Below are positions 9,001 through 21,000 of a stretch of 38,654 nucleotides of DNA, one piece after another. Where the stretch lies: NCBI GenBank assembly GCA_037446635.1, contig JBBIIG010000021.1:26508-65161 (forward strand), read 5' to 3'. A program made the position numbers. This DNA is from a bacterium. Lineage in GTDB: Bacteria > Zhuqueibacterota > Zhuqueibacteria > Oceanimicrobiales > Oceanimicrobiaceae. Each line of letters opens with the position of its first letter. Within the stretch, counting starts at the first letter, position 1.

Positions 9001-12000
9001 GTCAAAAAATCCCCGTGCTGAATATTTTTCGAATTCACTTTGATACAAATCGCGGCGCGTGGTTTTGTGAAACAAAAACACGTCGCGCGACGACGTTCGC
9101 GCCGATGAAACCGCCGCGCGCCCCAATTCTATTTTTTGATACGCCAATGGCTCGGCGCTAACCTGAACGTTTCCTTCTTTATTCAAAACCAGCCGGACTT
9201 TGTAGCGGCCCGAAATATGAAAGCGCCGTTCCAGGTCACGGAGGCCTTTCAGAACTTCATCTTCATCGTACAAAAAATCAAAATAAGCCGCCGACTCGCG
9301 CAGCCGTTTTAAATGCAGCGGCAGGCGCTGAAAACCGCCGCGCCAAAGTATAGTTTCAATTAACGAAAATTCGCGGTAGGGTTCAATCAAAAAATTGGCT
9401 TTGAGCCGGCATTCCTCGAATTCGGCGGCCGCGTCGGAGTCGTAAACCACGCCGCTGCCGACGCCCATTTCACCGCGGCCATTTTCGATAACCACGGTGC
9501 GAATGGGCACGTTGAACACCGCATTCCCTCCCGGCGCGATCATGCCAATGGCGCCGGTGTAAACGCCGCGCGGCGCGCGCTCCAGCTCGCGGATGATTTG
9601 CATGGTGCGGATTTTCGGTGCGCCGGTCACCGACCCGGACGGAAAAATACTTTTGAAAAGATCAAAGTACGACAGGCCGTTTTTTAACTCGCTGGCGATT
9701 GTCGAGGTCATTTGAAAAAGTGTGTTGTATTTTTCCACCGAGTAAAGATTTGACACCCGCACGCTGCCGGTTTTGGAAATGCGGCCCAGGTCGTTGCGCA
9801 GCAAATCGACGATCATCACGTTTTCGCTGCGGTTCTTTTCGTCGCTGGCCAAACGCTGCGCTAGCGCTTGATCTTCAGCAAACGTACGTCCGCGCGCCAT
9901 CGTGCCTTTCATCGGGCGGACGGTGATCTGACTTCCCGCTCTTTTAAAAAACAGTTCCGGCGAAAACGAAAGAATGTAGCGATCGCGAATTTTGATGAAC
10001 GCGTTATATGCCACCTCCTGCTTCTTTTTCAAATCCTGATAAAGCGGATAGGGATGACCGGCGAAATCAAACTTGTACTTAGTGGTGAAATTGACTTGAT
10101 AGGTGTCGCCGGCTTCAATGTATTTTTTGATTTGCCAAATTCGGCTCTCATAATCACTCGGCAAAATGGCGAGCTGCAGGTTGGAGATCGCATGCGGCGG
10201 CGGCGGTGCGTCCGAGTCGGCAAACCACTCCTGCTGGAAATCGATGCAGGCTCCCGTTTGATGATCGAAAATGAACGGCTTTTCAAACCGGCCTAACCAA
10301 ATCAACGGCAGAGCTTCCGGGGTGCGCTTTTTGACTTGATTAGTCAAATAGTAGCCGAGTTCATACGAAAAAAATCCAGCAAGAAAATAGCCCGGCGCGT
10401 TTTCATCGATCTGCGCGAAGACTTCGGGAATGCGTTCATCCTCGCGCGCTTCGAGAATTGCGCGCGGATTGATGAACAAAAAGCTGTGTCTGTTTTCGGG
10501 ATCGAATTTGTTGGTTTCCAACAAAATGAAGATCTCGTGGGAATCGATCCAATCGATTTTGAACGGCGGCAAGCGGTGGCTTTGCTTCATATTCTGTGCG
10601 GAGAGTTTTGAAAATGTATCGCAATCAGAGCTAGAAGTCAACCCATATGTGAGCTTGCATCTTTTGCGGCGCGTGATTATAATTTCACAAAACCGATTTA
10701 ATGAGGTTGTATGGTCACGAAATTTCCACCAGTGGAATGGGCTGATGATACCGGCCTGTTAGCCATCGGCGGCGACCTTGAAGTCGAGACGCTGAAGTTG
10801 GCGTACACTAGCGGCATCTTTCCGTGGCCAATTGAAGGCGAACCACTTTACTGGTTTGCGCCGCCGCGGCGCGCCATCCTGCAATTCGACGAACTGCATG
10901 TGCCGGAGCGGCTGCAGCGTTATTTGAAAAACTCTGATTTCACTTTTCGGGTGAACTCAAATTTTGAAGCCGTGATCCGCGGCTGCGCCGCCAGCGCCAA
11001 CCGCAAAGGCGCGCGCGGCACCTGGATCACGCCGGAGATGATTGCGGCTTATTGTGAATTTCATCGCTGCGGTTTCGCGCACAGCTTCGAAACCTATAAT
11101 CGAAAAAATGAGCTGGTGGGCGGAATGTACGGCGTGATGATCAAAAAATATTTCGCTGGCGAAAGCATGTTTTACAAGGAATCCAACGCCTCAAAATTTG
11201 CGCTCATCGAAACGGTGAGCTTTCTTCGCCAGCGCGGGCTCGAGTGGATGGACGTGCAAACTCTGACGCCGCTGTTGAAACGGCTCGGCGCGAAGGAAAT
11301 CCCCCGCGCCGAGTTTATGAAAAAATTGCGAGAGGCGTTAAAGGAGGGGCTGTAACTTCGGGCGGCGTAACTCGACATTCACGTCGAGAAATAGGGCGAC
11401 ATAAATGTCGCATTACGAAATCAAACCGCCACGCCCATCAGCTTCGTTTCTAACACTGCAATCTCAGCGAGCCCCTCTTCCTCACGCCGGTTCTTTTCCT
11501 CCGGCTTCAACGGGCGCAGAACTTTGAAATCGGCGCGCCTGATTTCCGTGCGCTTGCCATTGATGGGAAGATAGAACCAGCCGTTTTCTTTCGTGAGTCC
11601 GAGAGAAAAATAGTGATCGACTTTTTGCAGCAGCTCGACGACTTCTTTCCAGTCCATCATGCGCTCCATCAGCTCGAGGCCGTCTTTCCAATCGCACTCT
11701 TTAATCACTTGTCCAAACAGCCGCACCAGTGTGCGCCATTCTTTGCCGGTGAACCGTTCTTCGATAAGCGACTTCAGCGCTTGCGAATCGCGATTGAGTT
11801 GCTGGAAGTCAGTCACCGTTTCCGGAACATCGCTGAGCAGATCGAGCAGTGAGTCGAGCGCATCCTGCTTTTCCGCCAACGGCCAATCTTCCGATTTCAA
11901 CGTGTACTTCGCGAGACTGCGCCAGCGCTCGAGGTAATCCTGCCAATTTTTTTCCGAGAAAGTGCGCTTGACCAAATTGGCGAGGTTGCGATAGACGGCG

Positions 12001-18000: not shown

Positions 18001-21000
18001 ATGGCGCGCGCAACGCCGGGATGAGTTTTCAAAATGTCCATGTAACGGGCAATCGCGCCATCGACGTCGTAGCCTTCTTTGCGCAGCAGGGTTTCGAAAT
18101 CGTCGTACGTGGGCAGCTTTTTTTGGCACGCTGGAGAACCGCCGTTCTCGACTTCCAGCAGCATGTCGCTGATCGGGCAAACCGTCTCGCGTTCGGCGAC
18201 ACCGCAGCGAAAACAGAGCACGAAACGATCGACATCTTCCTGCGACAGCTTTTTGCCCTCGAAGAGATGCTGCTGCATGAACTCCATTTTAAAACGCGGC
18301 GTGATGTAAATCGCGTCCTTCATCAATTTCGGATCGCCGGACTTTTCCCAGATTTGCGCCAGCGGACAAATCATGCACGCCGAGCATTTGATGCAGCGGT
18401 GCAGGGCGTCGAAGTTTTCGCGCTTGTACGGCAGGGTTTGATCCGACTGCAATTTTTCTTTGACTTTGCCGCGCAATTTGAAACGTGCCTGTGTGCGCAG
18501 AGCCAGATCCAGCAGATCGATGGAGCGCTCGTGCAGCAGCAATTTTCCTAAGAGATTGTGGCCCCGGCTGCGGATTTCAGTGATCTTGCCCGGATTGAGA
18601 ATACGCGCGGGATCGAAACGATCTTTGGCGCGTTTGAGATCGCGAAACACTTTCACGCCCAGCGCCCGCCGTGACAGGCCGGCGAACCAGAGGCCAAAGC
18701 CGTACGGCCGTCCGCCAAATTTTTTGATGGCCCGCCGCGCCAGCACCGGCGCCAAACTGAAGTGGCGATAGTATTGAAACTTCAGCCGGCGGTCACTGAG
18801 AAACTGCGGCAGCACCAGCGCTTCGTCGGAGTTGAGGAGATACGCAACGGGTAAAATCTCGATGCCCAATTTCGAAGCCAGATCGGATACACTTTTCAGG
18901 TAGCCATCGACTTGAGACAAAGGCAGGATCACCTCCGCGGTCAGTAGGTCGCCTTTTTTGCGCAGCTTCATGGGGGCGAAGCGCTCGTCCCAAAGAGCCT
19001 CGGCAACTTTGGGTGAGGCGACTTCGCAATTAGGTTTGGCGTAATCGACAAACGCGTCGCGATCGGCGGCGGAATCAAAAACCAAAAGCACCGTGTCGCG
19101 CGCCGGCGAATTGCTTTTGATCAAATCGGGGGAAAATAAGTCGCTGGATTTTTCTTCAGACTTGATCTTTTGGATTTGATCGAGATAAGCTTTTCCAAAA
19201 AATTCGACATGAATGGGTTTGAAAGGGACGCGCGCGGATTTAACGTCCACGGAGAGCATCTGCAAAAATTTGAAGGCGCTTTGTGAATCATTGAAATTCA
19301 GAACCACCGGAAAATCAGCAGCGGGCTTGGGCCGCGCTTTCAACGTAACTTCGGTGACGACGCCGAAGCGGCCGTTGGCGCCGAAATAATAAGCAAAATC
19401 CGGCGCGGATTTTTCCACTAATTTTTCCTCGCCATCGACGCCGACGACGCGGATGGACTCGACGGTGTCGCGGATGTGGCCGAAGCCGAACGCATTCAAA
19501 CCCAGTCCACCTTTGAAGGGCTCACCCACTGAAATAAATCCCGCGATGACGCCGTATTTGTTGCTGGGCCGGACCTTCAACGTCAAATGATGGCGATTGA
19601 GCGCTTCCTCGGCCTCATTAAAATCCACCGCGGCGCTAACCGTGATAGTTTGTTTTTCGGGTTCGACGAAAATCCTCTTTTCGAACGCAGCCATCTCCAA
19701 CACCACGCCGCCTTTGGTGAGCAGCGCGCCGCCAAGCGCCCAGGTTCCTCTTCCGCGCGGGGCAATGTTGATTTTATTTTTTGAAGCGTACGCCAAAAAC
19801 TTTTTGAGATGATCGACGGTGCGCGGGGCGAAAATGAGCTGCGGCGTGATGTTGAAAAGCGCGCGCAGTTTTTTGGGAATCGCGGCGTAATCGCGTGTGT
19901 AAACGGTTCGCCGAGAGAAGGGTTCAGTCTTAAAAAGCGCCTCCGCTTCTTCTTCGCCGAAACCCAAGTTGGAAACGATGTTTTCGAGCAGCTTTTGAGC
20001 TCGTTTCGTTGAGAGCTTCTCGAAGAACGCCATCGGCTTGGGGGTTGCGTCGTGTTCCCGTTCCCAGAGGGGCGAGTTTTCCCGCGACCGCCACCAGGCG
20101 CCGATCGCGTCGTGCAGGCGATTGTTCGTCGGTCGCGCACCCGCGGCGGCAAATGCCAGCAGGTCGGCAGTGGAAAGGTTACCATTGAGTTGGGCGCTGA
20201 AAAGCTGATCGTTATCGATCATCACTTTCAAGCGATTGCGCTGCACTTCCCCAAGTTGCCAGGGAAAGCCTTCCTGCGCATCCACGGACACGCGCCCTAA
20301 ATTGGCAAAGGTTTTTTCGCGGCCGCCATTGAAAAACTGCTCGAGGGCCAAACGTTGGGAAAACGCGCGGCGTTCGTCCTCGGCGGGCGCTGCGGAGTTA
20401 GAATTGGAGGCTGTAGAAATTTTGTTGAGAATCAAAGCTGGTTGGTCCAGATGTAAGTTCATAAGATGCCGCTTTGTTTTGCTTAAATTTGAGGAGAGCG
20501 TACATACATAAAACATTCATGTTATAGCTTCAATACCGGTCAATTGGCGATAATTTGAAATGTCTCGCGGTGAATTGATTATCGACTTGGTTACACAAAA
20601 AACTTAGCTCAGCGTGCAAAACGATTTCGCTAAAAAAAATTAAAAAATCGCTTGACAATCACATAAAACCGGTTATATTAGTTGGTTGTTCAAACCAAAT
20701 ATATTTCCCGGTCTGCTTTCCCCGGAGGCGTGTTGAAAATAAATCAAGACAACTTCATCGGCGGAAACGCAAAATTAGTCCGCAGCATCAACCGCGCTGT
20801 CATTCTCAACCTCATTCGCGAGAATCAACCCATCAGCCGCATCGAAATTGCGCGGCTGACCGGCCTGAACAAAAGCACGGTGTCCAGCATCGTCACCGAT
20901 TTATTAGAGGAAGACCTTCTCTACCAACAAGTCGAGCCCACGCCAAATGTCGGGCGCAACCCAATTAACTTGTGTCTAAAATTAGGCACCCACTTTGTCG

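What a model noticed while it worked through the whole genome (the two positions that open the first line are those of the whole stretch)
11421..20462. 3013-aa FAD-oxidase / glutamate synthase megaprotein, sole GOGAT
g02068 is one 3013-aa frame that strings together a GlcD/D-lactate-dehydrogenase-type FAD oxidase (207-627), Cys clusters of the 4Fe-4S type (690-960), the FMN domain of glutamate synthase (1514-1835), a weak glutamine-amidotransferase-like stretch (about 2200-2290) and the GXGXG domain (2641-2808), in the domain order of the split archaeal enzyme, not of bacterial GltB. It is the only glutamate synthase homologue in a 97% complete genome that has glutamine synthetase, so it is the likely GOGAT, with a built-in flavoprotein dehydrogenase in place of GltD or ferredoxin as electron entry.
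Evidence so far: Pfam hits and Cys positions; no other Glu_synthase/GATase_2/GXGXG gene but a Glu_synthase row on IMP dehydrogenase, one glnA, three gdh; 12 relatives of 3016-3345 aa at 53-85% identity (11 aligned over 96-100% of the query) on separate contigs, KSB1 where named, and about 45 of 23-30% identity (1742-2971 aa), Calditrichia where named; 64 in all, so the fusion is no assembly artefact.
(Added by a program. Inside this text positions count along the whole contig: contig position 26,508 is position 1 of the stretch shown here. "Call 12" and the like, gene names such as g00115 and contig names such as C1 are that model's own, and its searches are not shown. The text may have been shortened before it was handed on; [...] marks where a part breaks off. 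The agent that wrote the report below was given it as the finding of a first reader that could run no searches.)

Follow-up and report, generated by a model that had tools for sequence, protein, structure and literature searches.

The report
One-chain, probably self-splitting glutamate synthase
This giant gene fuses a four-gene set found in many anaerobic microbes into one glutamate-making enzyme that probably has to cut itself in two to work, and it carries its own flavin electron inlet whose fuel is unknown.

Summary
The 3013-aa frame is real. It is a read-through fusion, in gene order, of an operon (FAD/Fe-S; ferredoxin + dead barrel; ferredoxin + FMN barrel; amidotransferase + beta-helix) common in anaerobic bacteria and archaea. 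All four domains of bacterial GltB are present but rearranged: models overlay A. brasilense GltB over 641 and 540 residues. Its nucleophile, Cys1902 (ERDA|CGV), aligns with GltB Cys1 and is invariant (77 of 77 rows), yet lies mid-chain. Split subunits carry it behind a propeptide. So the chain probably cleaves itself into about 1901 + 1112 aa (inferred). The FAD domain lacks the His/His/Glu/His metal site of lactate and glycolate dehydrogenases, so that label fails and the donor is unknown; in split operons it alternates with MvhD-MetV-MetF. It is this genome's only glutamate synthase, but three GDH genes exist. I found no paper describing it (limited library). This scan noted the split operon, and a 2,527-aa fusion with an internal cysteine, before on other DNA.

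The parts
11421..20462 (-). Single gene, 3013 aa, one-chain glutamate synthase; flanked by a convergent aat gene and a divergent ROK regulator, so apparently transcribed alone
   Evidence: no shared neighbours seen among 17 relatives' loci
19878..20462 (-). Variable N-terminal region, aa 1-195, no family hit
   Evidence: 32% mean identity within the close clade
18573..19877 (-). PCMH/VAO-type FAD domain, aa 196-630; keeps FAD loops and W491, R494, E510, Y587, W592; lacks the His/His/Glu/His metal site
18177..18395 (-). First Fe-S dicluster, C690/693/696/699 and C750/753/762 (A756 in this clade, C in 54 of 71 rows)
17613..17894 (-). Ferredoxin-like dicluster, C857/860/863 (H867) and C939/942/945/949
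16428..17567 (-). Barrel A, aa 966-1345: catalytically dead paralogue of the FMN barrel, in the place of the GltB central domain
14898..16262 (-). Barrel B, aa 1401-1855: FMN/synthase domain with E1550, Q1587, K1609, Q1612, K1615, R1635, E1656, K1677 and cluster C1780/1783/1786/1792
14760..14897 (-). Charged, variable linker aa 1856-1901 ending ERDA; predicted cleavage site just before Cys1902
   Evidence: 32% identity against 81% and 71% on either side; 38-68 aa in 71 rows; low pLDDT for its last residues
14757..14759 (-). Codon of Cys1902, the Ntn nucleophile equivalent to GltB Cys1
13083..14759 (-). Class II (Ntn) glutamine amidotransferase domain, aa 1902-2460, with NRG, HxRxxT, HP, HNG, TD, DGP and RP motifs
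12738..13082 (-). Helical connector aa 2461-2575
12018..12662 (-). GXGXG beta-helix, aa 2601-2815
11424..12017 (-). C-terminal region aa 2816-3013, longer in this clade, no family hit

Best explanation
A glutamine-dependent glutamate synthase made as one precursor. Step 1 (inferred): the chain cleaves itself at Ala1901|Cys1902, as Ntn enzymes remove their propeptides, giving a 1901-aa redox chain and a 1112-aa glutaminase chain that stay together in GltB geometry. Step 2 (residues and fold shown, activity inferred): Cys1902 hydrolyses glutamine, and ammonia passes between the dead barrel A and the FMN barrel B to 2-oxoglutarate. Step 3 (cofactor ligands shown, path inferred): electrons enter at FAD and run through up to four Fe-S clusters and the barrel-B cluster to FMN, which reduces the imine to glutamate. 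The FAD/Fe-S module does the job of GltD or ferredoxin. My ranking for its donor (guesswork from residues): an organic substrate oxidised without a metal, held by R494/W491 with Y587 near the flavin, 0.4; NAD(P)H 0.25; quinol or ETF 0.2; no redox role 0.15.
For: Models: aa 1892-2815 pLDDT 87.6, pTM 0.90; its residue 11 (Cys1902) aligns to residue 1 of GltB, PurF and GlmS, with 540 residues on 1ea0 at 3.4 A, Z 22.7, spanning the glutaminase and beta-helix domains. aa 846-1860 pLDDT 80.1; 641 residues on 1ea0 451-1182 at 3.6 A, Z 31.9. 21 of the 23 glutaminase positions checked, Cys1902 among them, are invariant in 77 of 77 fused and split rows; the other two are the residues just before the Cys. 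E1550, Q1612, K1615, R1635, E1656, K1677 and three cluster Cys are invariant in 71 of 71 fused rows, 68 distinct. In split operons the Cys follows EGG in 66 of 68 amidotransferase ORFs, behind a propeptide of 11 or more residues, never directly after Met in the 66 listed; canonical GltB of this phylum shows a similar site, DA|CG or DS|CG, in 9 of 12 matched by pattern. [quoted passage not shown] GS, AmtB or PII lies in 29 of 80 split loci. GS is present in 21 of 24 other one-chain carriers, and a GltD over the cut-off in only 3, each on the contig of a canonical GltB.
Against: No activity, cleavage or expression was shown. AlphaFold was trained on GltB structures, so the overlay is not independent of them. 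5 of 25 one-chain carriers also have a canonical GltB (one of the five, G158, is unpublished), and 3 of 80 split loci (L024, L028, L048) have a long GltB-like ORF next door, so the enzyme may be a second system with a special role. The genome has three GDH genes, and many relatives have no glutamate synthase at all. In the two distant clades the FMN-binding Lys (K1609) is Ala or Thr in 54 of 71 rows. No paper in my searches shows self-processing for GltB itself; that point rests on the Ntn review and on recall.
Confidence: 0.62

Rival explanations
1. It is a glutamate synthase, but is not cut: the glutaminase works with a blocked Cys, or the enzyme uses free ammonia, or the C-terminal part is also made from an internal start codon.
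For: No cleavage was observed. In 9 of 12 loci of the Calditrichia-type clade an ATG or TTG lies 8-10 codons before the Cys, 3 of them with a GGAG/GAGG/AGGA word upstream.
Against: In the window the linker's two possible starts (TTG -54, GTG -18) have no such word, and no start is shared among the four close-clade loci. The whole glutamine site is invariant, which ammonia use would not need. Ntn chemistry needs the free amino group.
Confidence: 0.15
2. One reading: the FAD domain is a working D-lactate, glycolate or 2-hydroxyglutarate dehydrogenase that feeds electrons (and perhaps 2-oxoglutarate) to the synthase.
For: Best solved relatives are LctD, LDHD and glycolate oxidase; the W-x-x-R pair is kept; fusion with a 2-hydroxyglutarate dehydrogenase would be chemically neat (inference).
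Against: LDHD needs His398, His405, Glu442 and His443, and changing any to Ala abolishes activity (PMC10589216, passages). The matching segments here carry no such residues: LctD HAGDGNLH aligns to YLLNSDEALV and GEHGIG to PYGFGLW. Y587 is in 42 of 42 split and 71 of 71 fused rows, while the genome's own YdiJ-like protein keeps the His motifs.
Confidence: 0.08
3. It is not an assimilatory GOGAT but a related amine-transfer or C1 enzyme (N-methylglutamate-synthase-like), or runs in the glutamate-oxidising direction.
For: In split operons without the FAD module, MvhD stands nearby in 30 of 38 loci and MetV or MetF in 22 of 38, a link to folate C1 metabolism; co-occurrence with canonical GltB in some genomes; an earlier scan note (e1-2775763) reports a two-gene form in genomes mostly without GS (not checked by me on those genomes).
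Against: N-methylglutamate synthase needs no net electrons (recalled), whereas this system keeps a long Fe-S wire; glutamine-site and 2-oxoglutarate-site residues are those of GltB; neighbours are GS, AmtB, PII and other glutamine amidotransferases; GS is present in 21 of 24 carriers.
Confidence: 0.15

Closest known systems
Bacterial NADPH-glutamate synthase GltB/GltD (A. brasilense 1ea0, 2vdc, 6s6s; B. subtilis 7mfm)
   Same: All four alpha-subunit domains in the same predicted geometry; Cys1-type nucleophile behind a pro-region; synthase-site residues and three cluster Cys kept.
   Different: Order central-FMN-glutaminase-beta-helix instead of glutaminase-central-FMN-beta-helix; Cys 1901 residues into the chain; about 20% structural identity; score 192 against a cut-off of 1047 for the GltB model; PCMH-type FAD/Fe-S and ferredoxin domains instead of GltD.
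Ferredoxin-dependent GltS (Synechocystis 1ofd/1llw) and eukaryotic one-chain NADH-GltS
   Same: Same catalytic core; one-chain NADH-GltS is the known case of a fused electron-entry module (PMC8097209, section 6.1).
   Different: Ferredoxin-like domains are built in; the fused module is not GltD-like and stands at the N-terminus, ahead of the glutaminase.
Split archaeal glutamate synthase ORFs and proposed F420-dependent forms
   Same: Domains on separate genes in relatives; ferredoxin + FMN barrel subunit with a CxxCxxC...C motif (56 of 56 split B subunits); swapped electron-entry partners were proposed for FrhB-linked forms (bioRxiv 2021.09.25.461819, passages).
   Different: This family has an extra dead-barrel subunit, glutaminase and beta-helix on one subunit, and an FAD-oxidase-type or MvhD-MetVF partner; here all is one chain.
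FAD/metal 2-hydroxyacid dehydrogenases (LctD 7qh2, LDHD 8jdb, GlcD, YdiJ)
   Same: PCMH-type FAD fold by sequence, W-x-x-R motif.
   Different: No His/His/Glu metal site and no catalytic His; invariant PYGxGxW instead of EHG; no CCG domains.
Ntn hydrolases that split internally (penicillin acylase, gamma-glutamyltranspeptidase, asparaginase; listed in PMC3249071)
   Same: Precursor cut just before the nucleophile (that these split internally is recalled).
   Different: Here the released 'pro-region' would be a 1901-aa multi-cofactor half of the enzyme. I recall no class II glutamine amidotransferase like that, but my searches were narrow.

Membership tests
Glutamate synthase (GltS) alpha-type core | Class II Ntn glutaminase domain with Cys nucleophile and glutamine-binding residues | tested here: met
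Glutamate synthase (GltS) alpha-type core | Nucleophile Cys free at the N-terminus of the mature chain | not testable with these tools
   Cys is residue 1902 of the translated frame; cleavage inferred
Glutamate synthase (GltS) alpha-type core | FMN barrel with 2-oxoglutarate and gating residues and an Fe-S cluster | tested here: met
   Q909, K931, Q934, K937, R957, E978, K999 of A. brasilense counted along the alignment match Q1587, K1609, Q1612, K1615, R1635, E1656, K1677 (their roles are recalled)
Glutamate synthase (GltS) alpha-type core | Central domain and C-terminal beta-helix in GltB geometry | tested here: met
   (predicted models)
Glutamate synthase (GltS) alpha-type core | Glutamine + 2-oxoglutarate + 2 electrons gives 2 glutamate | not testable with these tools
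   needs an assay
Bacterial NADPH-GltBD | GltB domain order and family score | tested here: not met
   order differs; 192 bits against 1047
Bacterial NADPH-GltBD | GltD beta subunit beside or fused | tested here: not met
   none over the cut-off in the genome; the GltD-like gene is in a Rieske/cytochrome cluster
GlcD/LctD/LDHD/D2HGDH dehydrogenases | PCMH FAD-binding domain plus FAD-oxidase cap | tested here: met
GlcD/LctD/LDHD/D2HGDH dehydrogenases | Metal ligands His, His, Glu and catalytic His | tested here: not met
Methanogen-type split GltB1/B2/B3 | Three separate genes, no central-domain subunit (recalled) | tested here: not met
   one chain with a dead second barrel; the methanogen gene order itself was not examined
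N-methylglutamate synthase MgsABC | No electron-entry chain; methylamine-use neighbours (recalled) | tested here: inconclusive
   Fe-S wire present; the common neighbours found were GS, AmtB, PII, CarAB, PurF, GuaA, HisF, MvhD, MetV, MetF; no direct comparison with Mgs sequences
Four-gene FAD/Fe-S glutamate synthase operon (uncharacterised) | FAD-FeS, Fd-barrel A, Fd-barrel B, glutaminase-beta-helix in this order, with family motifs | tested here: met
   the ferredoxin of barrel B is lost in the fusion

The most novel reading that the evidence does not exclude
A fourth type of glutamate synthase, driven neither by NAD(P)H through GltD nor by free ferredoxin but by a dedicated metal-free flavoprotein that oxidises an unknown donor (interchangeable with an MvhD-MetV-MetF module, hence perhaps methyl-folate or a donor of similar potential). 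Here a whole operon has become a polyprotein that uses its own Ntn cysteine to split into two working subunits, and its tandem dead and live barrels preserve the duplication that could have made the GltB central domain.
Probability: 0.4. Interest if true: 0.8.

Novelty: new variant of a known kind. Interest (0 to 1): 0.62.

Why it matters
Its electron donor would define a new way of paying for ammonia assimilation. The one-chain form makes the system testable from a single gene and predicts an unusual maturation, in which the removed 'propeptide' is half of the enzyme. It also bears on a question left open in PMC8097209: whether the GltB central domain arose by duplication of the FMN barrel. 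Here such a duplication is visible over the full length (HH-suite probability 100%, E 3e-75), although descent of the GltB central domain from barrel A itself is not shown.

Tried and rejected
Assembly artefact: rejected; the apparent split in G055 is a run of N. Partner GltD: rejected. Sequence search of the glutaminase region against solved structures gave only weak hits (best E 0.039); the fold comparison settled it. Internal start codon in the window's linker: no support. Membrane anchor after the FAD domain: a hydrophobic stretch reaches 1.6 or more in 17 of 42 split proteins but in only 1 of 67 fused ones scored, 0.91 in the window, so no support for a quinol link here. Barrel A as direct ancestor of the GltB central domain: inconclusive; the central-domain profile (12 sequences) matches A and B about equally (probability 44% and 50%). 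Single or multiple origin of the fusions: inconclusive; the IQ-TREE run did not finish, the FastTree run carries a long-branch warning, 7 Calditrichia-type rows were left out, and the split sample is biased to the query. Atlas search of a split FAD subunit returned only automatically named clusters. Expression: no RNA holder listed. Contigs of two DNA runs gave depth in 30 of 30 bins and the listed indels keep or restore the frame, but no piece spans the gene. Promoter scan found no minus-strand site upstream, and the terminator-like hairpin at 11396-11411 is within chance. The Fisher test is not used, because kin are not independent. No complex prediction was run and the FAD domain was not folded. 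Paper searches that found no description of this family; none on GltB self-processing. PMC5736913 and PMC7325909 (passages) were not relevant.
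Full report
Observation. The minus strand at 11421-20462 holds one 3013-aa frame. One search gave 64 proteins including the query: a close clade (16 with the query, 53-85% identity, KSB1 where named), a clade of about 2530 aa (18 proteins, no taxon named) and a clade of about 2880 aa (Calditrichia where named). The full-length members printed show one domain order (part of that output was cut). The gene stands alone between a convergent aat and a divergent ROK regulator, and 17 relatives' loci showed no common neighbour.

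The glutaminase is complete and starts inside the chain. At 1898 the protein reads ERDA|CGVV, followed by HNRG, GHQRF, HNGD, TDTE, DGPW and LRPS. I aligned 71 full-length rows (68 distinct; P0064 and 7 proteins under 2480 aa were left out). C1902, G1903 and V1904 are invariant in them, and 21 glutaminase positions are invariant in 77 of 77 fused and split rows. The model of aa 1892-2815 (pLDDT 87.6, pTM 0.90) aligns Cys1902 with residue 1 of GltB, PurF and GlmS, and overlays A. brasilense GltB over 540 residues at 3.4 A across the glutaminase and beta-helix domains. [quoted passage not shown] The linker before the Cys is charged, 38-68 aa long and poorly conserved, and in the window it holds no start codon with a ribosome-binding word. 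I infer self-cleavage at 1901|1902. This is not shown.

Two barrels. Barrel B (1401-1855) keeps the GltB synthase residues counted along the alignment (their roles are recalled) and three invariant cluster cysteines. Barrel A (966-1345) is its paralogue without the catalytic motifs (0 of 68 split A subunits have them, 55-56 of 56 B subunits do). The model of aa 846-1860 (pLDDT 80.1) overlays GltB residues 451-1182 over 641 residues at 3.6 A, Z 31.9, which is the central plus synthase domain by the limits in PMC8097209 (passages and section 6.1 part 1 of 2). So all four GltB domains are present, in the order central, FMN, glutaminase, beta-helix. Against over-reading: by sequence the GltB central domain is no closer to A than to B, and AlphaFold knows GltB.

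Origin. A profile search of 1.84 billion representatives found the modules as separate or partly fused proteins. They show FAD-FeS, Fd-A, Fd-B and glutaminase-beta-helix in the same order as the domains here. The split glutaminase carries a propeptide ending EGG|C (66 of 68 ORFs; listed), so processing belongs to the family and the fusion only lengthens the pro-region. The ferredoxin of subunit B is lost in the fusions. One unnamed 3152-aa protein (P0089) has the glutaminase first, with the Cys at 79: the modules stay together in more than one order.

Electron entry. The FAD domain is nearest to LctD and LDHD by sequence, but LDHD's essential His398, His405, Glu442 and His443 (PMC10589216, passages) have no counterpart; the family has an invariant Tyr in PYGxGxW instead (42 of 42 split, 71 of 71 fused), while the genome's own YdiJ-like protein keeps the His motifs. 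The module is nevertheless conserved and tied to two Fe-S diclusters. Of 80 split loci, 42 have it and none of these has MvhD, MetV or MetF; of the 38 without it, 30 have MvhD and 22 also MetV or MetF. The two states are interleaved on the tree (FastTree only), but kin are not independent and the sample was chosen by likeness to an FAD-bearing query. I read the two as alternative flavin/Fe-S inlets (inference). With glutamine as nitrogen donor the half-reaction lies near -0.06 V (recalled values), so donors weaker than NADPH are possible.

Physiology. This is the genome's only glutamate synthase, with one GS and three GDH-family genes; the GltD-like gene lies among Rieske, cytochrome b and cytochrome c genes. 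Among 167 genomes of the phylum, 25 carry a one-chain form as judged by score and frame length, several in cut frames (6 close clade, 19 Calditrichia-type); 20 of the 25 show no canonical GltB and 5 do. GS was found in 21 of the 24 others, in G147 only as a weak hit, and a GltD over the cut-off in 3. These counts include the unpublished genomes G158 and G162. GS, AmtB or PII lies in 29 of 80 split loci. Against the 'must be the GOGAT' argument: 30 of 105 good genomes have no Glu_synthase match at E<=1e-20, and 3 split loci have a long GltB-like ORF beside them.

What is known. Ten searches of the open library found no description of this operon or fusion; most subscription papers are missing and I read no supplements, which could list such genes. 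The known types are NADPH-GltBD, Fd-GltS and one-chain NADH-GltS, plus proposed F420-linked forms. Within this scan the family is not new: five notes describe the four-gene operon, two a two-gene form, and one (e1-1417590) a 2,527-aa one-chain form with an internal cysteine. I had written down the self-cleavage reading before those look-ups; the notes are not independent support.

Verdict. Confidence in the whole mechanism 0.62; interest 0.62.

Noticed in passing
L018:9611-16428 (own genome, contig C20): A 623-aa GltD-like flavoprotein gene directly upstream of Rieske, cytochrome b and multi-heme cytochrome c genes: a Rieske/cytochrome b complex with a likely NAD(P)H module.
   Followed up: partly
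L028, L059, L063, L067, L084, L086 and others (L023-L102): MvhD, MetV and MetF genes stand beside the split glutamate synthase where the FAD/Fe-S gene is absent (30 and 22 of 38 loci); a possible methyl-folate- or NADH-driven glutamate synthase.
   Followed up: partly
P0075 (Omnitrophota, 3444 aa, partial) and P0089 (unnamed, 3152 aa): Giant proteins with signal-peptide-like starts that embed the same modules; P0089 has the glutaminase first and lacks the first Fe-S dicluster.
   Followed up: partly
L005-L017, linker before the Cys: In 9 of 12 Calditrichia-type loci an ATG or TTG lies 8-10 codons before the Ntn Cys, perhaps a relic or a live internal start.
   Followed up: no
Calditrichia-type and 2530-aa clades, barrel B: The FMN-binding Lys (K1609 here) is Ala or Thr in 54 of 71 rows; the Calditrichia-type clade has Lys at the Met1522 position instead and a long insertion in the barrel.
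   Followed up: no
L119:4594-9845 (G045): A split version (fused barrels, then glutaminase-beta-helix) in the same class as the window's genome.
   Followed up: no
L021:5208-6632 (own genome, contig C8): A lone 475-aa FAD-oxidase-type protein beside dnaA that also lacks the EHG motif (FFPYKTP), no family over cut-off.
   Followed up: no
window 20682-37326: ROK regulator, ROK kinase, long NagB-like protein, sodium symporter, GH20 hexosaminidase, TonB receptor and PorV-like gene: an N-acetylhexosamine-type utilisation cluster transcribed away from the gene.
   Followed up: no
window 8743-10641: Fused PabB + class IV aminotransferase (PabC-like), 632 aa.
   Followed up: no
L115-L118, L120-L122: Stand-alone 526-750-aa FMN-barrel proteins of the Glu_synthase family without glutaminase neighbours are common in this phylum.
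   Followed up: no
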